From: Octopus vulgaris
Lineage: Eukaryota
DNA length: 64,000 bases
Assembly: GCA_951406725.2 (NCBI GenBank)
Contig: OX597832.1
Coordinates: forward strand, 31,496,001 to 31,560,000
Direction: 5' to 3'
Shown: positions 19,118-32,440 of the stretch, in pieces
How positions within the stretch are numbered: position 1 is the first letter of the stretch
How the letters are laid out: the number at the start of each line of letters is the position of its first letter
The notes under the pieces: model-generated
What the model saw: the letters and a program-made list of their open reading frames with translations, nothing else
What the model was told of the DNA's origin: nothing
Databases searched by the model: none
Position numbers and translations under genes: made by a program

Positions 19118-19755
19118 GTATATATGTATGCATATATATGTGTGTGTGAGTATATAAGTAAATGGATATATAGATGTGTCTGTGTTTGTATAGTAATACA
19201 CAAACACATTTACATACACATATATATCTCTGTGTAAGGCTATATATGCATATGTATGGATATGTGTGTGTATGTACATTTCTATGTATGCATTTATGTA
19301 TGCATGTATGCATGGGCGTATGCATGTATGTATGTATAGAATGGAAATACCATCTGTTTCGATGACAGCTTCATTTTTCTAAACAACACTTGTAAATAGG
19401 AAATACATTTAAACAATACAATCGAGATCTTTTGCAACAAAGCAGTTAAAAGGGTGTTTTTTGCTTCCTACAGCAGCGTCTCCTGAGATTCTTCGTGGAG
19501 ATTATTCCAAAGATAAGAACAACATGTCTTTAGCTTTTCAGGAATACAAATCTGATGTTAAATACTCTCTGTTGAGGTTAACTTGTTAAAGTCTGACAAA
19601 TCAGCAAAGTTTTCTATCATCTGCAGCACCGAAATCCGAAAAATTCTGTTTCTGCTCCGCCCACTTCTGAAAACGAATTTGGTTGCTATTGTTGTTATTT
19701 TTGTTTTACTGTTGTCATTATTGTTACGTTTGTTATTATTATTATTATTATTATT

Positions 19756-20054
19756 GAGTGAGAGAGCAGTTCATGCCATCAAAGTGACACTGGGGTAAAA
19801 TATACGAAGCCCAATATACCCATCATGACTACCCGTCTGATAAAGGTACACCAGGCACATGCATCACAACCACATGTGCGTGACATGGTGATCTCATATC
19901 AAGATAAACAGCACATGACCTTGCAGGTAGGGCCCAGTTAGAATTTTCTTCAGGTTGAGTAGCCCATCCCGCTCAAACGGTCCCTGAATAAGGGTTGTTT
20001 AAGGATGTTGAAAGAACCACCCATGTTTCCAGAGGTGAACTATTCAAACCCCAA

Positions 20055-20055
<1 letters not shown>
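19756..20055 (-). mobile_element. (TAA)n-embedded retroposon, short copy
   Basis: Near-identical to the first 300 bp of 20091-20640 and to the reverse complement of 43117-43452; flanked by (ATT)n on both sides. Confidence 0.85.
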
Positions 20056-20090
<35 letters not shown>

Positions 20091-20640
20091 GAGTGAGAGA
20101 GCAGTTCATGCCATCAAAGTGACACTGGGGTAAAATATACGAAGCCCAATATACCCATCATAACTACCCGTTCTGATAAAGGTACACCAGGCACATGCAT
20201 CACAACCATATGTGGGCGACATGGTGATCTCATATCAAGATAAACAGCACATGACCTTGCAGGTGGGGCCCAGTTAGAATTTTCTTCAGGTTGAGTAGCC
20301 CATCCCGCTCAAACGGTCCCTGAATAAGGGTTGTTTAAGGATGTTGAAAGAACCACCCATGTTTCCAGAGGTGAACTATTCAAACCCCAAAGAATCCTTC
20401 TCAACACATGGCTATGATGCTCCCCCACTACTTCTGCTCGTGATCAGAGATGCACATATCATCAGCCACTAAGGGACATGCTCAACTGGTTAAGGTCAAA
20501 CAACTGACAAGCAAGTCTGTGGTATTGAGCAGAATATTTGCTGTAGCCCATCTTTTATACCAAGACAAAACAATGTACATGATAACACTTCCAATCAGTT
20601 AAGATCAGAAGCCATGAGAGCCACTGCCTGGTACTGCATC
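20091..20640 (-). mobile_element. (TAA)n-embedded retroposon, long copy
   Basis: Shares the fixed end gagtgagagagcag with the other two copies while the opposite end varies, consistent with 5' truncation; flanked by (ATT)n and (ATC)n. Confidence 0.85.
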
Positions 20641-20655
20641 ATTATTATTATCATT

Positions 20656-20766
<111 letters not shown>

Positions 20767-20771
20767 GCTGA

Positions 20772-20985
20772 GGCGCAGAGCTGGTGGAATCGTTAGCACT
20801 TTGGGCGAAATGCTTAACAGTATTTCGTCCGTCTTTACGATCTAAGTTCAAATTCTGCTTGGGTCGATTTTGCCTTTCATCCTTTCGGGGTCGATTAATT
20901 AAGTACCAGTGAAACACTAGGGTTGATGTAATTGACACATCCCCTCCCCCAAAATGGCTGTCCCTGTGCCCTTAGCAGAAAGGAT
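20772..20985 (+). mobile_element. SINE family B
   Basis: ggcgcagagctggtggaatcgttagc head followed by gcctttcatcctttcggggtcga. Confidence 0.85.
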
Positions 20986-21000
20986 TATTATCATTATTAT

Positions 21001-21342
21001 GTTTTTTCCTTCTTTCTTCAAATTTTCTTCCGTTTCTCGCCGAGTGTTTTCCATACACCTAGGGCAGAGAAGGGCATTGTATGCATTCCCAGATTACACG
21101 CGCAAATTTACAGATAAAATATGTATTTAAAAATTAATAAATAAATAAATTCATGGATGGATGTTATTTTCACAGCGATAATGCTCTTCTCCGTACATGA
21201 GCCGTTCCAGTTAATACGATTTTTTGCACTTCCTGTAGGGATGGTAAGCCTGGAATCATTTTCAAATAGGTTTCAGTACCTTTTTTTTATCATTCCTAGA
21301 GATCCTACAATCACTGGTACTGTAGTCGCCTTGAGATGTCAC
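21001..21342 (-). mobile_element. R4/Dong-like LINE 3' end
   Basis: Minus strand HLKATTVPVIVGSLGMIKK/GTETYLKMIPGLPSLQEVQKIVLTGTAHVRRRALSL* (one frameshift in an A-run) matches the 'PVIVG.LG...QK..LLGTA.ILR' R4/Dong terminus; abuts (ATT)n. Confidence 0.85.
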
Positions 21343-21430
<88 letters not shown>

Positions 21431-21489
21431 AAGATAGCGAGCTGGTAGAAACGTTAGGAAGCCGGTCGAAATGCTTGAGAGCAGATCCA

Positions 21490-21697
21490 AGCCCCCCAAA
21501 AGCTGCTCTGTTGGGGACAGCTAGGATTTTGAAATTGGAACTTGAATGTTGAATGTCTCCCACGATAATTAACAACCAAGTATCGAAGCTTATAATGTGT
21601 GGAAAGAGACCCTGTGAGACCTCTGACAACAGGCTGCTGTCTGCTCTCAGAGAATCTATCAGAACAAACAAGACTGTGTACTCTGAGAAGTAAAACA
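21490..21697 (+). mobile_element. R4/Dong-like LINE 3' end, second family
   Basis: KAALLGTARILKLELEC* followed by a distinct 3' UTR. Confidence 0.7.
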
Positions 21698-21726
21698 ACA
21701 ATGATGGTAATAAATAATCGTATAAC

Positions 21727-21782
<56 letters not shown>

Positions 21783-21986
21783 ATGAAAAAGAAGAATGAG
21801 GCATCATTTATATCTAGAGACATGCTTCCAATAATTCTTGAAACTTGACCAAAAAACTTTTTCTTGTAAAATTTTCCATTTATATACTTTAAAATTATTC
21901 TTTAAAATATTCCTTAGATTTTATAGAATCTTCTCCAACATTTTCCTTCGTAACTCTTTCTTTCTTTCCTTCTTTCTTTCTTTCCT

Positions 21987-22026
<40 letters not shown>

Positions 22027-22030
22027 TCCT

Positions 22031-22081
<51 letters not shown>

Positions 22082-22118
22082 ATATTCTTGTGTTGTCAAC
22101 AACAACAACAACAACACC

Positions 22119-22173
<55 letters not shown>

Positions 22174-22766
22174 GTGAAACACTCGTGCCGACCATTAATC
22201 ACCTTCGTCCTTTCCTGCCTCGCATAACTTCCACTTCTTTCGCTGCCTCCCTTCCATTCGTGCCCATCCTACCAGACCAACACCCTGTTCTATACACCAG
22301 TCTATCAATCACTGTTTAACATTAATCAAACACATTTTGCCAAAATGAATAAATGAATGAAAACATTAAAATAAAATATATTATAATAAATTATATAAAA
22401 AAAAGACAACAAAACTTATACAAAACTGTTTAAAAACCATAAAAAAAAATCTGCTGAGAATAATGAATATAAAATATTTAAAATAAAATATATTCAAAAA
22501 TACCGAGAAAGAGATAAGAATATTTTTAAAGATAAGAAAAATTGTGGTTGGAATGATTTTTGCTTATAGACATATTGTGTAGACAGATACATATATTATA
22601 CAAACATATACATACATTCTCTCTCACATACACGTACGCACACACACACAGACACACAAACAATCAGACATGTACACACATGATTATAAATATATATGTA
22701 CATACACACCAACATACATGCATACATATATATATGCATATCTATAAATATCTATGTATGTGTGTG

Positions 22767-22840
<74 letters not shown>

Positions 22841-23725
22841 CTTGCACACACCTGTGAACACTCAAACGTATGTTTAATAATAAATCTGCATGTACGTATG
22901 TATATCAAAATATATATTTTGATATATTAGAATACACACATGCATATATACATATACATACATATCTATCTATCTGTCTATCTTTCTACCTACTTACCTA
23001 TCTACCTGTCTACCTACCTACCTACCTACCTACCTACCTACCTACCTACCTACCTACCTACCTACCTACCTACCTACCTACTTACTTATCTATCTATCTA
23101 TCTATCGATTTTTGGGATGCTTTTGCTGCTTTAATAAAAAAGCATAATACTCTACTTTTGGTATCGAGTACTATTCTTCGACCTTGCTTTGCATTTACAT
23201 GCTTGCTCGTGTATTTACATACATATGCATATATATACCTAATATTTTGGTGGTAATTGATTTCCTTAAAATAATAAGTCTGTAAATAAAAACTTGTAGT
23301 TTATATTCATATAAGTAAATGGAGATTCTGAAGGTAATAAGAATATATTATCAGCAACAAATCAAACATTTACCTTACAGCTGTTTCGATTAATACTCAG
23401 TGAATTAATTAAATATTAAGTTCATATTTCTGAATATAATATTTTCAGAGGGAACAAAAATATACCTTGAAATGTTTTATATGTTTGTTTATGGATAGTA
23501 AACAGAGAGATAATTAAGGTATAAGACAGAAATATAATTAAGGTATAAATGATTATCTTATGGACTTCATTACTCTACAGCTGTTTCTGCAATATGACGC
23601 AACAGACTCACAGCTGAGAACCCGAAAAGCAGCTTATAGCTTCGTAGGAGCCTCCTTGTCACATTCTTCTCTTTTTCTTTCTCCCTCCCTTTGTTTCACT
23701 TTACTCTCTTCCCTCCCCCTACAGC

Positions 23726-23764
<39 letters not shown>

Positions 23765-24316
23765 CCATTTCTGATTTTTCGATATTGGATATTGTTGTTC
23801 TCTGACTGAGAAAAAAACACAGAACAAACAAAGAACAAACAAACAAAAAAAGAAGTAATGTGCCAAATATGTTGTTTGACCATAGATTTGTTCGATCGGG
23901 ACTAGTATTGAACTAACCAACAACAACAGCAGCAGCAACAGCAGCAGCAACAGCAGCAGCAACAGCAGCAGCAACAGCAGCAGCAACAGTAGCAGCAACA
24001 GCAGCAGCAACAACAACTGCAATAACAATAACCAACACTGCTTTCTATTTTATTAATGAGAAAATAATTTCTCTGATTGCAAGAGAACAATATGTCTGCT
24101 TTAAAAACGAGAAAAAAAGAAAGTTATTTTATTCAGAAATCAGTTAAATCAGGTCAATTTTACATAGTAAGAATTGTTTCACCGAGAATCTTCCATAGAT
24201 TTCCATAAAACCTTACAAGTAAGTTAGCTTGTTTGAACAATCAAGAAGTGCTGTTGGGGGTTTAATCTGAAATTCCGGGCGCCATCCGGCCGGATATATA
24301 TCTTAATTGATAACAA

Positions 24317-24665
24317 AAGTGTGAAACAGATCAGCGAAAAGGTGTGAATTACGTCGGCAGGAGGTGTTGGAAATAAATTGCTTGGAGGTGTGAATTACAT
24401 CAGCAGGAGGTGTGAACTACGTCACGTGACCGGCGTGAAAGAAGGTCGCAAAAAGGTGTGAATCTTCCTGGGACGAAGGTGTGAAGTACATCAAGCACGT
24501 CAGGTAGAAATTTCTGAAACGAGGTGTTAGACAACCGGACAGTCCAAATATTCGGGTGAGGGTGGGCAGGGGAGAGGACGGAGGAAGAGGAGAAGGAGGA
24601 GGACGGAGGTGAGGAAAAGGGAATGGTGGAGGTGTGTGAACTACGACAGCATGAAAGGTGTAAAG
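24317..24665 (+). promoter_or_regulatory. Periodic array of T-box-like motifs (AGGTGTGAA) with bZIP/Maf-like linkers
   Basis: Motif starts at 24317, 24340, 24362, 24386, 24408, 24431, 24454, 24477 and 24522, then about 24632 and 24656; all on the same strand. The array is observed; function is inferred. Confidence 0.55.
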
Positions 24666-24740
24666 TAATTTGAAGACATAATTACTGTGTCCCCCCCCCC
24701 CCACATAGCTATACACACCAATATATACACATACGCATAT

Positions 24741-25146
24741 ACTCTTTTACTCTTTTACGCTTTTACTTGTTTCAGTCATTTGACTGCGGCCATGCTGGAG
24801 CACCGCCTTTAATCGAGCAACTCGACCCTGGGACTTATTCTTTTGTAAGCCCAGTACTTATTCTATCGGTCTCTTTTGCCGAACCGCTAAGTAACGGGGA
24901 CGTAAACACACCAGCATCGGTTGTCAAACACAGACACACAAACACACACACGCATATACATATATATATATGTATACATATATACGACGGGCTTCTTTCA
25001 GTTTCCGTCTACCAAATCCGCTCACAAGGATTTGGTCGGCCCGAGGCCATAGTAGAAGACACTTGCCCAAAGTGTCATTCTGTAGGACTGAACCGGGGAC
25101 CATGTGGTTGGGAAGCAAGCTACTTACCACACAGCCACTCCTGCGC
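24741..25146 (-). mobile_element. SINE family A, full length
   Basis: Complete head gcgcaggagtggctgtgtggtaag through to an (agtaaaag)n tail on the minus strand. Confidence 0.9.
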
Positions 25147-25176
25147 ATATGCATATATATTAAATATCGATTCATA

Positions 25177-25219
<43 letters not shown>

Positions 25220-25338
25220 TTAGAACATGCGAAATACGCCATGTAGTAGTTAGTAGCTGTTGCTGATTTTAGTCCAAGGCCATTTCTGGTAAAATGGATC
25301 TGTAATGAAATAAGTTCCATCCATGACCGTTCGATATA

Positions 25339-25726
25339 GGCGCAGGCGTGGTTGTGTGGTAAGAAGTTTGTTTCCCAGTCACATGGTTCCGGGTTCAGTT
25401 CCACTGCGTGTGCACCTTGGGCAAGTGTCTTTTATTACAACCTCGGGCCGAACAAAGCCTTGCGAGTGAATTTGTTAGACGGAAACTGAAAGAAACCTGT
25501 GATATATTATGTATATATGTGTGTACGTGTATTTGTTTCTGTGTTTGTCTCCACCACCACCACCACCACTTGACAACAGATGTTGGTGCATTTACACCCT
25601 TGTAACTTAGCGGTTCGGCAAAAGAGACCGATAGAAGTTCCAGACTTAAATATAAATACTGGGGTAAGGCGGCGCTCCAGCATGGCCGCAATCTAATGAT
25701 TGGAACAAGTAAAAGAATAAAAGAAT
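25339..25726 (+). mobile_element. SINE family A, full length
   Basis: ggcgcaggcgtggttgtgtggtaag...gggttcagttcc...accttgggcaagt...aagtaaaagaataaaaga. Confidence 0.9.
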
Positions 25727-26339
25727 ATCAGGAACTTCATAATTGTTTCTATCTTAAGACTGTAGTTTGGGCTGAGAGGGAGATTTGACTGTTGTTTCTA
25801 ACGAATCAAGTAGAGATGTTGTTGTTGTTGCTTAGTCCCCAGATTGATTTCGATTGGTCAGATCTATTATCAAAGGTATTCCTACCGTGTCCACCCCGTC
25901 TTGTTCCGATGTACTGAGAATAGAATTGCGCATTAATCTAAAGCAGTTCGCTGGACTTTCTGAATGGCATAACGGACAAAACTTACTTTGAATGCTTTTA
26001 GAAGTGCGGCCCGCCTACTGATGAGCCAAGTTACTCGCGGCCCGCTTGTTGAAAAACGTTGCCTATACCTGATGTAAAAAGTTCTTTTCGAAGGTAAAAA
26101 AAAGTGTGATTTTTAGGTAGATTTGGCTGCTATTTCTAACAAATGCGACCGAATACAGGTTCCTTGAGTGGGTAGATGTAAGTTGATTTAGTGTTTGAAG
26201 AAGTGTGTAACAACAGTCAGGTGCTAAATAGATGGCAACAAAGTGTCAGGTGTGTCACCGGAAGCTCATTGAACAAATTAAACAACTCACTTGTTCACAT
26301 TACAGAAGATGTGTGAATATAACATCTGTTGATAATAAT

Positions 26340-26700
26340 AACAAGAGCATTCAGAGAGCGCAAACCTCAGCCAAGGCAACACCAACGTCCTCTCAACGAC
26401 TAGCCTGATGGTTTTTTAAAATGAGAATATCTGAAATAAACTCGACTGCTCTCAAAAACGAGAATACTAAAAATGAACCTGACCGCTCTCAAAAATTAAG
26501 TAAAAAGATAAAAAGAATCCAGAATCCTTGTCCAGTACCGAATCGATCCTAAAATATAATCAGTTCGTGCCTGTAACGAGGCACGAAAATCCCTCAAAGT
26601 TTCATTCGAATCCATCCAGTCGTTCTTGAGATATCTTGTCCACGGACAAACAAACAACACAACTGAAAGTAATACTTCCGCCTTCGTTAACGCGGAGCTA
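26340..26700 (+). mobile_element. Helentron-associated (HINE/DINE-1-like) non-autonomous element
   Basis: Starts aacaagagcattcagagagcgcaaacctc, has (acaa)n near the end and a terminal stem-loop ttccgc...gcggag; architecture recalled from similar fish and invertebrate elements. Confidence 0.55.
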
Positions 26701-26715
26701 ATAATAATAACAATG

Positions 26716-26768
<53 letters not shown>

Positions 26769-27427
26769 TTATTTCTTTATTGCCCACAGGGGGCTAAACA
26801 CAGAGGGGGCAAACAAGGACAGACAAACGGAAAGTAAATGTGAAATGTAATGGTGAGAAATTGTTATGAAACAAAACCGTGAAATGTAATCGTGAAATTT
26901 AACGATAGAAAGTGACCATGAAATGTAACTGTGAAATGTAACTCCAAAGTAGTAAAACACTTCAAGCCACTCCCGGTTATCATGTTTCACAGCTTTTGTT
27001 TTTCGAATTCCTTATTTAATAAAATGATTAGAAGCCATTTTCAGTGGAGAAAATTGTATTCTTAAAAATGTGTCTCCCTTGTGGGAAAGAAATGTCGTTA
27101 AAACATGATGAGTTCCTCGTGTAGAACGATTAACAGTCAAACATCACGTTTGTGAGATGACACGAGTCGAAGAAAATTATGCGGGACATGTTTTATAGAG
27201 ACGTGTTAACAACATAGTTAAGGAAGTGTCAAAAGCGTTGGCAGAAGCCGAGCTGGAAGTGTTTGAACGATTCTGAAAAGAGAGAATATTATTTACGTCA
27301 GGACGAAATGGTAAAAACAGAAGAATCGTTGATAAAAAAAATAAACTAACCGTAGGAAATTTTAGACCTTTCACGAGAAAATGTCAAGGCTGGAAGATAA
27401 AAATAGGGATGTGTGTGTGTGTGTGTT

Positions 27428-27489
<62 letters not shown>

Positions 27490-27633
27490 CACGCGTGCGT
27501 ATTTGTTTTCCAAGATTCTTGTGTTGAAACAGATATCGTTATATTTCGGGATGGTCATTTTTTGGTGGTGGTGGGCGCAAAAAATAGTGCGCGTGTTTAT
27601 TTAGCAAAACACACAGACAGACAGACAGACACA

Positions 27634-27677
<44 letters not shown>

Positions 27678-28074
27678 CACACACACGTGGTGTGCCCCTG
27701 GTGGCGACTGTTTATAGGGGGAGACAATCTCTTCTAGATTAAGTTCTGTCGGATTTGGAAGTTCGGAATTTCGATCAAAGACTAAAAAAGGCGGCGTAGA
27801 GAGTATCTTTGTTGCTTATGTCTTACTTCTTCCAGTCGTTAACATGCGGCGAAGCTGGGGCACTACCTTCATGGGTTTTAGCCGAGGGAGTCGACCCCAG
27901 CACTTGTGTCTAGTCTTTAATCCTTGGACTTATTTTATCGATTTCTTTTGCTGAACCACATTGTACATTATGAAGTCCTTAAATTTTCAAACCGTTGGTA
28001 GTTATGTATGTATGTATGTATGTATGTATGTATGTATGTATGTATGTATGTATGTATGTATGTATGTATGGTGA

Positions 28075-28313
28075 AGTCACACGGCTCTGTGGTTAGAGCG
28101 TCGAGCTTACGATCTTATGGTTTTGAGTTCTCGGACCGGGCTGCGTGTTGTGTTCTTGACCAAGACACTTTATTTTACGTTGCTCCAGTTCACTCGACTG
28201 TGTATTTCATCCTTTCAGGGTCGAGAAATTAAATACCAGTTGTTTACTGGGGTCGATCTAATCGACTGGTCCCTTCCCCCAAAATTTCGGGCTTGTGCCT
28301 AAAGTAGAAAAGG

Positions 28314-28315
<2 letters not shown>
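28075..28315 (+). mobile_element. SINE with a family C-like head and a family B-like 3' part
   Basis: tgtggttagagcg...ttgaccaagacactttattttacgttgctccagttcactc joined to tttcatcctttcagggtcga...ctggggtcgatctaatcgact. Confidence 0.6.
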
Positions 28316-28357
<42 letters not shown>

Positions 28358-28424
28358 GTGTGTGTGGGTGTGTGTGGGTGTGGGTGTGTGGGTGTGTGTG
28401 TGCGTGTGTGTGTGTATCATATAT

Positions 28425-28586
28425 ATGACGGGCTTCTTCCAGTTTCCGCCTACCAAATCTACTCACATGGTTTTGGTAGGTCTGAGGCTTATAGTAGTAA
28501 ACACTTACCCAAGGTGCCACGCAGTGGGACTGAACCTGGAACCATGTGGTTGCGAAGCAAAGTTCTTACTGCACAGCTACTCCTGC
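28425..28586 (-). mobile_element. SINE family A, 5' part
   Basis: Reverse complement of the family A head. Confidence 0.8.
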
Positions 28587-29716
28587 TGCTAGCATTGTGA
28601 AATCGAATTTCAAATTAGAAGTTGTTACACCGAAGATGGTAGACACGTTATTCTTTGTAAGATATTTCATGTCATCAAAAGGTAAACACAACGTCTGAGA
28701 GGTGCAATTAATTCTATCAAGAAAGGAAAGTGTGAATTACGTCAGCAAAATTGTGTAAAAGATGATGAAAGAGGGAAAAAGAACTCGTGTGAAAACAGAA
28801 CAACAAAAACAGAACAACAAATAAGAAAATTTACGTGTGAAAGTTAAGTCTATAAGGGTGTTGAGAGTTGATATTAAATACCTCATGTCACCTCGTGTTC
28901 AACCCTGGAAATATCTACCCGAAAAAAAAAAAAAAAAAAAGAACACACACACACACACAAAAGCAAACGAAAGGAAAAAAATTGATAACAAAATACAAAA
29001 GAAAATATTTTTTCAAAAAAATTTCGTCGAAGATGTAAAACCGGAAGATATTGAAAGTGACAGGAAGTATGAAAATAGTGATGATGTATATCGGCAAATA
29101 GTAAATAGAGAACTATTGGGAGAAATATTAATAGTTTATAGGTGAACACCAAGGTCAAAGGTTGGCTTTGAGTGAGGTCGCTTCGGAGCAAAAGGAAAGG
29201 TGTTACAACTTGGTATTTACACCTGTTTTCCGATGTCAGACTTTGAAAATGTGTGGGCTATTTTTCCATACATACATACATACATACATACACACATACA
29301 TACGTACATACACACATACACACACACACATACATACATACATACATACACACACATACATACATACATGCATACATACACGCATACATACATACATTCA
29401 TAAATACATACACATATACATACATACATACATACATACATACACACACATACATACATACACACATACATACACATATACATACATACATACACACACA
29501 TACATACATACATACATACACACACATACATACATACATACATACATACATACATACATACATACACACATACACATATACACATACATACATTCATACG
29601 GTTCTATTCTTCTCTACACGAGCCTTTGAGTCTGAGATATAAAGGTTTTATTATAGTTTCCGCATTGTTAGAAGCTGTCTATTTTCTCTCTTTTTACATT
29701 CTTCGATATATTTATA

Positions 29717-30041
29717 CGAGAGTTAAGGAATGGTGCCGATAAGATCCGGTCTGCATATGTTACATAGCGAGTGGAACCTCTGAAGTATAAATATCCAAGG
29801 CAGGTGTGTACCGCAGACCACTCTTTAGGCCAAGGCCATCTTGGTTAAATGAAAGTTTACATTGTCGCAAAGAGGTAAAGATTGAATCTTCCTCGTATTC
29901 ACAAGTACCTCCTTTGCGACAATGTAGTCTGACAAGTAACCTGCAGTATACACCTCGCTCGGATATTTACCACTTCCGAGGTTCCGCTCGCTGTGAAACA
30001 TATGTAAACCGGATCTTATCCTCTCCATTCCTTAACTCTTG
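29717..30041. mobile_element. Palindromic MITE, Tc1/mariner-type, TA target duplication
   Basis: ta|cgagagttaaggaatgg ... ccattccttaactcttg|ta; arms pair over about 100 bp, plus an inner stem tacattgtcgcaaagaggta / tacctcctttgcgacaatgta. Confidence 0.8.
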
Positions 30042-30237
30042 TATTCTTATCCGCACTTCCGGCAACCCTGGTCGCCTACCATGAAATATAAAAAGAACTT
30101 TTTCTGATATCAAAAAAATCCATAACCTTCCGTCTCAATAAACCACTATTGTCCTTGAAAGTCATTTTTTCTATTTACTACGGATTGCTTGAAGCTAACT
30201 TGCTTCCTACACCTCGATCCCTGGATCTTATATAATA

Positions 30238-30400
30238 GGCGCAGGAGTGGCTGTGTAATAAGTAGCTTGCTTACCTACCACATGGTTCTGGGTTCAGTCC
30301 CACTGCGTAGCACCTTGGGCAAGTGTCTTCTACTATAGCTTTGAGCCGACCAAAGCCATGTGAGTGGATTTGGTAAACGGAAACTGAAAGAAGCCTGTCG
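30238..30400 (+). mobile_element. SINE family A, 5' part
   Basis: ggcgcaggagtggctgtg...accttgggcaagt...gaaagaagcctgtcg. Confidence 0.85.
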
Positions 30401-30510
30401 TGTATATATATATATATATAGTGCAAACTATCTTATCAGTATATTATCTTCATCGCATAATAACTGGAGTTGAGAAACTGCTGGTTACAAGCCTATAATA
30501 ATAATAATAA

Positions 30511-30576
<66 letters not shown>

Positions 30577-32440
30577 TAGTGGTAGTAGTAGTAGTAGTAG
30601 TAGTAGTAGTAATAATGATGATGATGATGATAATAATAATAATAATACTCAGGCAGAATATAATATTGAGGAAACAGTAGACTTTATGGAAAATATCTGT
30701 TAGAAGTGAGAAATTCTGAAGAGGATGTCTCTCAGACAACAAATAATAACCAGAGAATCAGATAAAATCCTTCAGCATACATTTTATCAGCAGAGTATAT
30801 ACATCGCTAAACATTCTTAAAAGGTTTTATTCGAAAAACAAATTCGTCACATTTTATTAACGCATTTCAAAGGCTCCAAAAAAAATTTTTTTAAAAGTCA
30901 ATATCAAATTTACACAATAATTTATATTGAAAAATAAGAAAATAAGAAATTTTAAGTATGGAATCACAAAAAAGGTTTACAAATGGAAGAAAAAAAAATC
31001 CATCTTAAAATGACAAATTATGTGAAGCGGCTCTTATATAATCCATTATTTTGTGATTTTTATATTCATTGAGGATGATATATATAATTCTCCTTGCACT
31101 GTCTAAATATTTCTTTATGGGATGTGGAATTTCTCTACTTGCCATATTTTATTGTGTTCTTTCTGCATTTCGCCTGCGTTTTTATTTATTCGAAATTTCA
31201 GAAAACAGTTTCCAAAATGCAGGAATTGCTTGCATTGGAATTTCTTCGTTTTCGTAGTTAAATAAAACGAGGTGTATTTCAACTTGGAATAAATGCACAC
31301 TTAAAATATTATTTAGCGATGTACTTACTCGGTAGGTAAAAAAATATTGATGGATTCACTGAGACGATGTATTTGGCGTTACGAGGAATATGTCGTTGAT
31401 GTATATAGCACGAAAATAAATTTACTAGCGTTGCATTGGCCGAAGATGTAATTAATTAAAAAGGTAATGTAATTATGGTGATGAAATTTCTAGAGAATTC
31501 ATAGCAAACCGGTCGAATGTATCTCAGTTTTTAAGAAGAGAATGACGACGCCGGGAAGCCTTTTGTTTGTTTCTTGACGAATTCCTTGGCAGATGCTGAA
31601 AGGATTACTGCAGTCTCCACTTTACTTCTTTCTCCACCTCTGAATTTATCTCTGGAATTTTTAGACTCTTCTCTGTATCTCTCCACTCCTTTATTTCTCT
31701 CTTTCTTTCGACTCCTGTCGATATGACTTCACTGCCTTTTCATCTTCGACATTTGCCGCCGCACTTCTAGACCCTTTTCATCATTGTAATGTACTTTCTT
31801 TTAAATATGTGTTCGTAATATTACAACAGTTTCTCAAATTTTTAATTGACATTTTGTGACTCTGTCTTTCTTCCGACATTGATTTCTCACCAGTTTTATT
31901 GTTTTGTTAAATATTTTTCTCGCTGTTTATATAGCTTTCTTTGTACTTTGTACCTCTTATATATAACACCCCGCTAAATGTACAGTTATCTCCCTTGGTT
32001 TTCCTACATTCCCTTTCACCCCCACCACGCATTCATGTCCCCAATTCACCAGCCTTCTACACCCTCACTACTCCATATCACTATCCGTCAACATTTGCGA
32101 ACCTCCACTCCCCTTAAGCCCATCCCTATAAACAGATCCCCTCCATACATGCACACACCACCCCCGCTTCTTTCTCTCTAATTCTTACTTACAGAATTGC
32201 ATTCTCACCTGGAACCTAAAACCTTTTGCTTTCTTTCCTCCCTAGTTTCCTCTTCCTCTTCCTCCTCCTCCTCCAATTTCCTATCCTTCCTTTTCTTTTC
32301 TTAACTTGTGCGATGAAGGTCTAGCATTCGAAACGTCAAAGACTGTTTCCTTTCCTTTCATCCATCACACTAATAACAACCATGTTAAAATATGTCCGTC
32401 TTGTTCTTGTCTTTTGCCTATACACACACACACACACACA

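What the first reader, a model, noticed from the sequence alone, without database searches (positions are those of the whole stretch)
24317..24665. Phased T-box motif array with a 22-24 bp period and variable linkers
Seen: eight consecutive same-strand motifs, five of them exact AGGTGTGAA, at spacings 23, 22, 24, 22, 23, 23 and 23, then one at +45 and another pair near 24632 and 24656. The linkers differ much more than the motifs; several read TTACGTCGGCA, TTACATCAGCA or CTACGTCA. Established: AGGTGTGA is the T-box half-site, and TGCTGAC/TGACGTAA are Maf and ATF-type bZIP sites. Inference: an enhancer built by tandem amplification of a T-box plus bZIP unit, with motif and near two-helical-turn spacing preserved. 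This is the best candidate here for an undescribed regulatory architecture.
Basis: partly seen in the sequence, partly recalled or inferred. Interest (0 to 1): 0.72.

Follow-up and report, generated by a model that had tools for sequence, protein, structure and literature searches.

The report
Conserved T-box site ladder in octopus
A single-copy, 280-base stretch in a gene-poor part of an octopus genome carries eight T-box-type motifs about 23 bases apart, with other dimer-type motifs between them, and has changed far less than its neighbours in a related species, so it likely acts as a long-range developmental enhancer whose target gene is not yet known.

Summary
The array is single-copy. Uniform minisatellite decay never reproduced its motif-versus-linker contrast (0 of 20,000 simulations). 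In a related species the core 24277-24560 shows 3 listed substitutions in 284 bp, against 6.6% in neighbouring unique DNA. Only 21 of 32 substitution rows were displayed, but a second contig bounds the array part at 4 in 185. Linkers are conserved too and hold five CRE/Maf-like cores, a perfect E-box palindrome and other palindromes. A second exact T-box+Maf-type composite lies 4.4 kb away. No host gene was recognised from 0.3 Mb left to 1.2 Mb right. Best reading: a dense distal enhancer, likely bound by T-box monomers alternating with bZIP/bHLH dimers. Two first-reader points fail or weaken: the 22.9-bp period is 2.18 turns, so sites spiral rather than share one face, and only some units look duplicated. 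Binding, activity and target are untested. Periodic homotypic enhancers are known, but I found no report of this layout. The scan had no earlier look-alike finding.

The parts
24277..24560 (.). Conserved non-coding core (candidate enhancer)
   Evidence: 3 listed substitutions and no listed indel in organism E contigs X13/X18, versus 77 in about 1,164 aligned bases of two nearby unique stretches; 11 of 32 substitution rows and 5 indel rows of the call were not displayed
24284..24295 (.). 12-bp palindrome holding two head-to-head CCGGAT words (ETS-type, label recalled)
24293..24302 (.). 10-bp AT-rich palindrome (TATA-like)
24304..24317 (+). 14-mer with GATAA / ATTGAT / AACAAA words, repeated exactly at 28980
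   Evidence: factor labels (GATA, Cut/Onecut, Sox/Fox) recalled
24317..24485 (+). Eight phased T-box-like half-sites (starts 24317, 24340, 24362, 24386, 24408, 24431, 24454, 24477)
   Evidence: 5 of 8 match the TBX1 SELEX consensus AGGTGT(G/T)(A/T) exactly, 2 with one mismatch, 1 with two
24349..24359 (+). CRE/Maf-like linker of unit 2; organisms D and E carry G>A at 24356, giving the first 11 bases of the Mafb SELEX motif on the - strand
24395..24405 (+). CRE/Maf-like linker of unit 4 (85% identical to the unit 2 linker)
24417..24430 (.). Unit 5 linker: ACGTCA core overlapping a perfect 10-bp E-box palindrome GTCACGTGAC (24421-24430)
   Evidence: the only copy in the window, 2 copies in the 1.8 Mb of flanks; no listed change in organism E; USF/TFE/MITF/MAX label recalled
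24486..24515 (+). Unit 8 linker: TACATCA and CACGTCA cores, a degenerate motif slot at 24502 and a 10-bp palindrome at 24506-24515
   Evidence: organism E has A>G at 24490, giving TACGTCA
24522..24530 (+). Ninth T-box-like site (AGGTGTTA type), two periods after 24477
24560..24629 (+). Purine-rich GA tract; source of the only other BLAST hits in the genome
24630..24664 (+). Distal pair of T-box-like sites, less conserved
   Evidence: 5 listed substitutions at 24627-24655 in organism E
24289..24473 (.). Stretch covered by one 185-nt contig of run X20 (RNA is the tool's guess)
   Evidence: depth 7.7, 4 differences, no joint listed; weak evidence
28728..28759 (+). Second exact T-box + CRE/Maf-type composite, followed in phase (+23) by a degenerate GTGTAAA site
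28980..28993 (+). Second copy of the 14-mer found at 24304

Best explanation
This is a conserved, single-copy non-coding element with a 23-bp ladder of T-box-type motifs, and it likely works as a distal developmental enhancer in which T-box monomers would bind head-to-tail while bZIP (CRE/Maf-type) and bHLH dimers would fill the slots between them. Shown: the array, its uniqueness, its conservation relative to its flanks, the dyad-symmetric linker sites and the second composite 4.4 kb away. Inferred: the 23-bp period is a packing length, one roughly 12-bp T half-site plus one roughly 11-bp dimer site, so proteins wind round the helix by about 65 degrees per unit rather than line up on one face. 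Inferred: many linked sites give a steep, T-box-dose-dependent output gated by a bZIP input. Inferred: short local duplications (at least unit 2 to unit 4) seeded the ladder and the linkers were later recruited as different sites. Inferred: the 28.7-29.0 kb patch is a weaker sister element with the same vocabulary. The target gene was not found.
For: Conservation: 3 of 284 versus 6.6% background (binomial 6e-6); independent bound of at most 4 of 185 from X20 (P 0.005); none of the 3 listed core changes in organism E hits a T-box motif, and two move linkers toward the bZIP consensus (24356, 24490). Uniform decay gave a motif-linker contrast of 0.50 or more in 0 of 4,000 runs at each of five divergence levels. 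Motifs fit published T-box consensi. The linker word equals the first 11 bases of the Mafb SELEX motif, which is cAMP-responsive in reporters. The core has 5 YACRTC cores versus 0.77 in shuffles and 4 palindromes of 10 bp or more versus 0.17, as expected for dimers reading double-stranded DNA. 2 of the 3 exact genome-wide matches to the 18-bp composite are in this window, and 2 of 9 14-mers that the core shares with 1.26 Mb of surroundings fall in one 250-bp patch 4.4 kb away. It is the only cluster of 3 or more T-box-type matches within 250 bp in 1.86 Mb. The genome has 7 T-box loci and 4 bZIP_Maf-family matches. No ORF runs through the array, and no Rfam match or significant fold was found there.
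Against: No binding, chromatin or reporter data. Eleven of 32 substitution rows were hidden; if all fell in the core the signal would vanish (14 of 284, P 0.15). The background rate rests on two stretches, and organisms D and E are the only informative relatives. With one mismatch the composite is not enriched genome-wide (25 matches versus 36 control); a looser exact form gives only 5 versus 1. Phased triples are not enriched either (59 versus 206 control). Every motif copy in both clusters is on the + strand, and the one RNA-labelled run covers just the array, which an RNA element would also explain. In organism D a change falls inside motif 1 (24323). No target gene was found, and conservation of the second patch could not be read.
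Confidence: 0.62

Rival explanations
1. It is a DNA regulatory array, but the repeated 9-mer is read by a factor other than a classical T-box monomer, for example a lineage-specific C2H2 zinc-finger protein, or a single T-box+bHLH protein of the MGA kind (recalled) that would use both the T sites and the E-box.
For: Assignment rests on motif likeness alone. A perfect E-box palindrome sits inside the array. The C at the start of unit 6 and the GG end of unit 3 fit T-box consensi less well.
Against: 7 of 8 phased sites are within one mismatch of the TBX1 consensus, and T-box genes are present. Whether any of them also carries a bHLH domain was not tested.
Confidence: 0.13
2. It acts as RNA: part of a long non-coding transcript, or its promoter and first exon, carrying repeated sites for a microRNA or an RNA-binding protein spaced at about one Argonaute footprint.
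For: All motifs are on one strand. The period equals microRNA length. Run X20 (RNA by guess) has a contig on 24289-24473 but no depth in unique bins 24020-24194, 26995-27344 or 28745-28919, and it alone shows A>G at 24326, which fits editing or a SNP. A TATA-like palindrome lies just upstream.
Against: One low-depth contig in one run of uncertain kind, which enhancer RNA or DNA carry-over also explains. Five of the ten or so motif copies depart from the 9-mer at positions a seed match would need. The linkers are palindromic double-strand-type sites. Fold z-scores are -1.4 and +0.7.
Confidence: 0.15
3. It is a decayed 23-bp minisatellite or a transposon subterminal repeat with no current function.
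For: TRF calls a 22-bp repeat at 24340-24424. Units 2 and 4 are 85% alike, and autocorrelation peaks at 23 and 46. A look-alike 18-mer occurs three times in inverted repeats on C8. 22-24-bp minisatellites containing the same 7-mer are common.
Against: Single-copy by BLAST. Uniform decay fails in 0 of 20,000 simulations. 19 of 20 other triple matches examined have linker identity 0.69-1.0, versus 0.25-0.5 here. The core diverges less than its flanks.
Confidence: 0.07
4. The AG|GTGTGA words are a tandem set of alternative splice donors or microexon boundaries.
For: Superficial likeness to the donor consensus (recalled); microexon arrays were noted elsewhere in this genome by earlier AI notes.
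Against: 23 bp is too short for introns, and the period is not a multiple of three. All six frames are stopped or lack a continuous ORF through the array. The X20 contig runs through seven motifs with no joint listed.
Confidence: 0.03

Closest known systems
Homotypic, periodically spaced site clusters in Drosophila enhancers (Papatsenko et al., PMC2761283; 12 passages read)
   Same: Clusters of one factor's sites with preferred distances near 20-23 bp (Twi, Hb, Kr; peaks near 23 bp for Dorsal), mixed with heterotypic pairs
   Different: Those are statistical signals over about 100 enhancers with 3-5 sites per cluster and are read as same-face helical phasing; here one element has 8-9 sites in strict register and the phases precess
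Cooperative Brachyury enhancers: Ciona notochord CRMs and the Drosophila orthopedia enhancer (PMC3812116; passages read; the Kusch 2002 paper itself was not held)
   Same: Multiple non-palindromic T half-sites with a TNNCAC core; activity was lost when spacing was changed in one CRM
   Different: Two or three functional sites at 35-45 bp in the passages seen; no regular 23-bp ladder or interleaved bZIP sites described there
TBX1 tandem T-site repeat (PMC4010391; passages read) and Midline/Tbx20 monomer site (PMC3485041; passages read)
   Same: Head-to-tail AGGTGT(G/T)(A/T) half-sites
   Different: The TBX1 repeat is abutting (period 8-9 bp); here sites are 22-24 bp apart with a different site between them
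Mafb HT-SELEX / CRE-like element TGCTGACGTAAGCA (PMC11604768; passages read)
   Same: The first 11 bases match the linker at 28737 and the organism D/E allele at 24349
   Different: The last three bases are replaced by the end of the T-box site; the paper notes CREB1 may be the real reader, so Maf versus CREB/ATF is open
Gyre-spanning T-box binding on nucleosomes (bioRxiv 10.1101/240598; passages read)
   Same: T-box factors bind nucleosomal DNA at long fixed distances
   Different: That mode needs about 80 (or 40) bp; distances here are 22-24, 45-46, 68-69 and 91-92 bp

Membership tests
T-box-driven enhancer | Sites match T-box half-site consensus | tested here: met
   5 of 8 phased sites exact, 2 with one mismatch, 1 with two, against AGGTGT(G/T)(A/T)
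T-box-driven enhancer | Non-coding and evolutionarily constrained | tested here: met
   No ORF; 3 of 284 versus 6.6%, with the hidden-row caveat and the 4 of 185 bound
T-box-driven enhancer | T-box proteins exist in the genome | tested here: met
   18 matches at 7 loci
T-box-driven enhancer | Direct binding, open chromatin, orientation-independent activation of a target | not testable with these tools
   No EMSA, ATAC or reporter data; target not found
Helically phased (same-face) site array | Period a multiple of about 10.5 bp | tested here: not met
   22.86 bp; phase concentration R 0.08-0.16
Maf recognition element | TGCTGAC half-site with Maf-type flank | tested here: inconclusive
   Exact at 28737 (with AT-rich flank) and in the D/E allele of unit 2; one base off in reference units 2 and 4; equally a CRE-like site
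Minisatellite | Whole-unit similarity that decays uniformly | tested here: not met
   Motif 0.83 versus linker 0.33; 0 of 20,000 simulations
Transposon interior or terminal repeat | Multiple dispersed copies | tested here: not met
   3 BLAST matches: self and two to the GA tract only; the tool warns that counts are lower bounds
microRNA sponge RNA | Transcribed, with repeated seed matches to an expressed microRNA | tested here: inconclusive
   One guessed-RNA contig; six seed strings absent from the 4 supplementary files searched as text, which may not list mature sequences
Known structured RNA family | Rfam match over the array | tested here: not met
   None of 33 matches at E<=1 in 20000-32000 overlaps 24277-24700

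The most novel reading that the evidence does not exclude
A previously undescribed enhancer grammar: a spiral lattice in which T-box monomers and bZIP/bHLH dimers alternate every 23 bp along 200 bp, built by short tandem duplications, held to base-level spacing by selection, and using a fixed T-box/Maf-CRE composite that recurs in a sister element 4.4 kb away, acting over hundreds of kilobases in an octopus gene desert.
Probability: 0.25. Interest if true: 0.75.

Novelty: new variant of a known kind. Interest (0 to 1): 0.52.

Why it matters
Almost no cephalopod enhancers have been dissected at motif level: a search for octopus, ATAC-seq, enhancer, conserved noncoding, T-box and cephalopod (5 of 6 terms) gave 3 papers, seen as listings only. 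This element is compact, single-copy and unusually regular, so it is a ready test of whether site spacing matters, whether a T-box/bZIP composite exists, and whether tandem duplication can seed an enhancer. If it proves to act as RNA it would be a candidate microRNA sponge in a lineage known for microRNA expansion.

Tried and rejected
Target gene hunt. I fetched C19:30.896-32.76 Mb and ranked stop-to-stop ORFs by composition. Pfam was run on 135 of the top 150 of 13,387, 75 of the top 110 of 5,895 and 43 of the top 120 of 5,728. Rows left out were those I judged by eye to be transposon or low-complexity frames, plus most left-flank rows. The top 70 of 2,902 from 32.56-32.76 Mb were only read by eye. 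Host genes appeared only on the left; from 31.22 to 32.76 Mb only transposon remnants and weak sub-cutoff hits. Short exons of a giant gene could be missed. A Neuralized hit at 32.38 Mb (E 0.006) was not confirmed. Shox-like and Arx-like homeoboxes are 1.1-1.4 Mb away beyond other genes, an HMG box 12 Mb away and Zic 6.5 Mb away; none can be named as target. Autoregulation: no T-box or Maf-family match on C19. RNA: no RNA holder on record was listed. The lack of array cover in runs X10 and X14 is no finding, since X13 and X18 of the same organism cover it. Dosage-compensation idea: the Zmast preprint (10.1101/2024.12.09.627507, passages read; supplements closed) mentions no motif, and Z-linkage of contig C19 was not tested. 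A recalled 24-bp T-box spacing preference could not be traced: absent from the main texts of PMC3791401 and PMC5494305 (term search), searches did not show it, and three older papers (Garnett 2009, Kusch 2002, Morley 2009) were not held, so precedent may exist. No T-box/Maf composite appeared in the main-text passages of the CAP-SELEX paper PMC12119339; its supplementary tables were not read and could list one. Searches showed no description of this element or layout (listings only, apart from the papers cited). My first linker-contrast table (first part) was biased by the trailing linker and was replaced.

Full report
Setting. The window is G000:C19:31496001-31560000 in a 2.80-Gb genome of 227 contigs. 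The window is dominated by simple repeats and interspersed repeats and shows no convincing coding exon.

Observation. Motifs start at 24317, 24340, 24362, 24386, 24408, 24431, 24454 and 24477, then 24522, with a distal pair at 24630/24632 and 24656. All 5 exact AGGTGTGAA in the window are here, against 0.57 expected. The spacing regularity has probability 2.5e-7 under random placement. Units are 0.83 identical in the motif and 0.33 in the linker, with 0.26 expected by chance.

Not an ordinary repeat. BLAST of 461 bp gives 3 matches: itself and two to the GA tract. Exact motif pairs at 22-24 bp occur 5 times genome-wide, 2 of them here, with 4 in the control. A looser triple pattern gives 59 matches (control 206), 3 of them here. 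Of the 20 other matches for which loci were returned, 19 have near-identical linkers (0.69-1.0) and are plain minisatellites; one on C5 has unrelated linkers (0.27) like this array (0.25-0.5). The other 36 were only read by eye and mostly look like minisatellites. Simulated uniform decay of a 22-mer, allowed to pick its best 9 columns, reached the observed contrast in 0 of 4,000 runs at each of five divergence levels. Some duplication history is real: the linkers of units 2 and 4 are 85% alike and autocorrelation peaks at lags 23 and 46.

Conservation. 20 of 24 listed runs hold part of the stretch, under five organism codes. In organism E, contigs from two studies span 24020-24734 with 32 substitutions. 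Of the 21 displayed, 11 lie in 24140-24276, 3 in 24277-24560 and 7 in 24561-24655. Two neighbouring unique stretches differ at 77 of about 1,164 bases (6.6%). Three of 284 has binomial P 6e-6. The 11 hidden rows matter: all in the core would give P 0.15. Two points argue against that. Every displayed row of this contig is at least 84 bases from a contig end, which suggests the hidden ones lie near ends or in the repeat-diluted GA tract (inference). And the X20 contig, also labelled E, has only 4 differences in 185 bp of the array (P 0.005). No indel was listed in the core for D or E, although 5 indel rows were not shown. The three core changes in E are all in linker bZIP-like sites; two move toward the consensus and none hits a motif. 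Motif and linker do not differ significantly (0 of 81 versus 3 of 133, p 0.29). In the closer organism D one change falls in motif 1 and converts it to the GTGTAAA variant. The distal pair is not conserved.

Anatomy. Seven of eight phased sites are within one mismatch of the TBX1 SELEX consensus, and six have the TNNCAC core of functional Brachyury sites. The linkers are not filler. The core has 5 YACRTC cores (0.77 in shuffles) and 4 palindromes of 10 bp or more (0.17 in shuffles; 0 of 5,000 reached 4), including a perfect E-box palindrome at 24421 and a 12-bp palindrome at 24284. The word TGCTGACGTAA is the start of the Mafb SELEX motif, which behaves as a cAMP-responsive element in reporters and may be read by CREB1. 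The genome has 7 T-box loci and 4 bZIP_Maf-family matches, none on C19.

A sister patch. At 28728 the T-box+Maf-type composite recurs exactly, followed 23 bp later by a degenerate site, and a 14-mer from just upstream of the array recurs at 28980. Two of the 3 exact genome-wide matches to the 18-bp composite are these two places. Two of 9 shared 14-mers in 1.26 Mb fall in this patch. The patch is otherwise not alignable to the array and is single-copy apart from a poly-A/AC stretch. Genome-wide the composite is at best weakly enriched (25 versus 36 with one mismatch; 5 versus 1 for a looser exact form). The patch's conservation could not be read.

Spacing. The mean period is 22.86 bp, 2.18 turns at 10.5 bp. 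Site phases are spread round the helix (R 0.08-0.16), and no pair lies at the roughly 80 bp of gyre-spanning T-box binding. A packing reading fits better: the Brachyury palindrome is 24 bp, two 12-bp halves, so a 23-bp unit holds one half-site plus one dimer site (inference).

Neighbourhood. Across 1.86 Mb this is the only cluster of 3 or more T-box-type matches within 250 bp. The same crude exon screen found regucalcin-like and RNA-cyclase-like exons near 31.0 Mb, a weak methyltransferase-like hit at 31.12 Mb (E 0.003) and an intronless EB1-like gene at 31.22 Mb, 302 kb from the array. It found nothing recognisable from there to 32.76 Mb. This suggests a gene desert or a giant gene with short exons. 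The target is unknown.

RNA rival. All motif copies are on one strand, and the only RNA-labelled run laid covers just the array among unique bins, with one private A>G. This is one low-depth contig from a run whose kind is a guess. There is no Rfam match or notable fold, and seed strings were absent from the supplements searched. I give it 0.15.

Comparison and verdict. Periodic homotypic clusters near 20-23 bp are known from fly enhancers, and cooperative multi-site T-box enhancers from Ciona and fly, so it works like a known kind. Membership as a T-box enhancer is met on sequence and conservation but untested on binding and activity. A nine-site ladder with interleaved dimer sites did not appear in my searches, with the caveat that three older T-box papers were not held and the CAP-SELEX supplements were not read. 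The scan's own index had no look-alike. Verdict: real, probably functional, a new variant of a known kind; interest 0.52.

Noticed in passing
L082 (G000:C5:16972801-16972851, - strand): A second triple of T-box-like sites at 22 and 22 bp with unrelated linkers (0.27 identity); may be chance or a smaller element of the same kind.
   Followed up: partly
L022-L024 (G000:C8:68686731-68688522): Three copies, in both orientations, of an 18-mer one base from the composite, inside longer inverted and direct repeats that look like transposon ends.
   Followed up: partly
window 2145 and 13660: Further TACGTCAGCA words on the + strand; 5 of the 6 TACRTCAGC matches in 464 kb lie in this window, all on +, though the total is about what chance gives.
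   Followed up: partly
L112:1685-2914 (G000:C19:31217685): Intronless EB1/MAPRE-like ORF with a CH domain (E 5e-26 to human EB1) and a long divergent tail; possibly a retrogene.
   Followed up: partly
L078 and L079 (G000:C19:30.11 and 30.40 Mb): Shox-like and Arx/aristaless-like homeobox exons (names recalled from the sequence) 0.29 Mb apart; Zic (37.98 Mb) and a strong HMG box (19.36 Mb) are on the same contig.
   Followed up: partly
G000:C19:31.22-32.76 Mb: At least 1.5 Mb with no recognised host exon by a crude screen: a candidate gene desert.
   Followed up: partly
window 19733-20391: Near-perfect 336-bp tandem duplication (98%).
   Followed up: no
window 26831-27390: Unique stretch with a 13-bp repeat (26875-26942) present in organisms C and E at background divergence; used as neutral control.
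   Followed up: partly
G000:C15:74129340-74129737: Homogeneous 23-bp minisatellite whose unit contains the AGGTGTTA word, about 17 copies: the kind of young array from which such a ladder could start.
   Followed up: no
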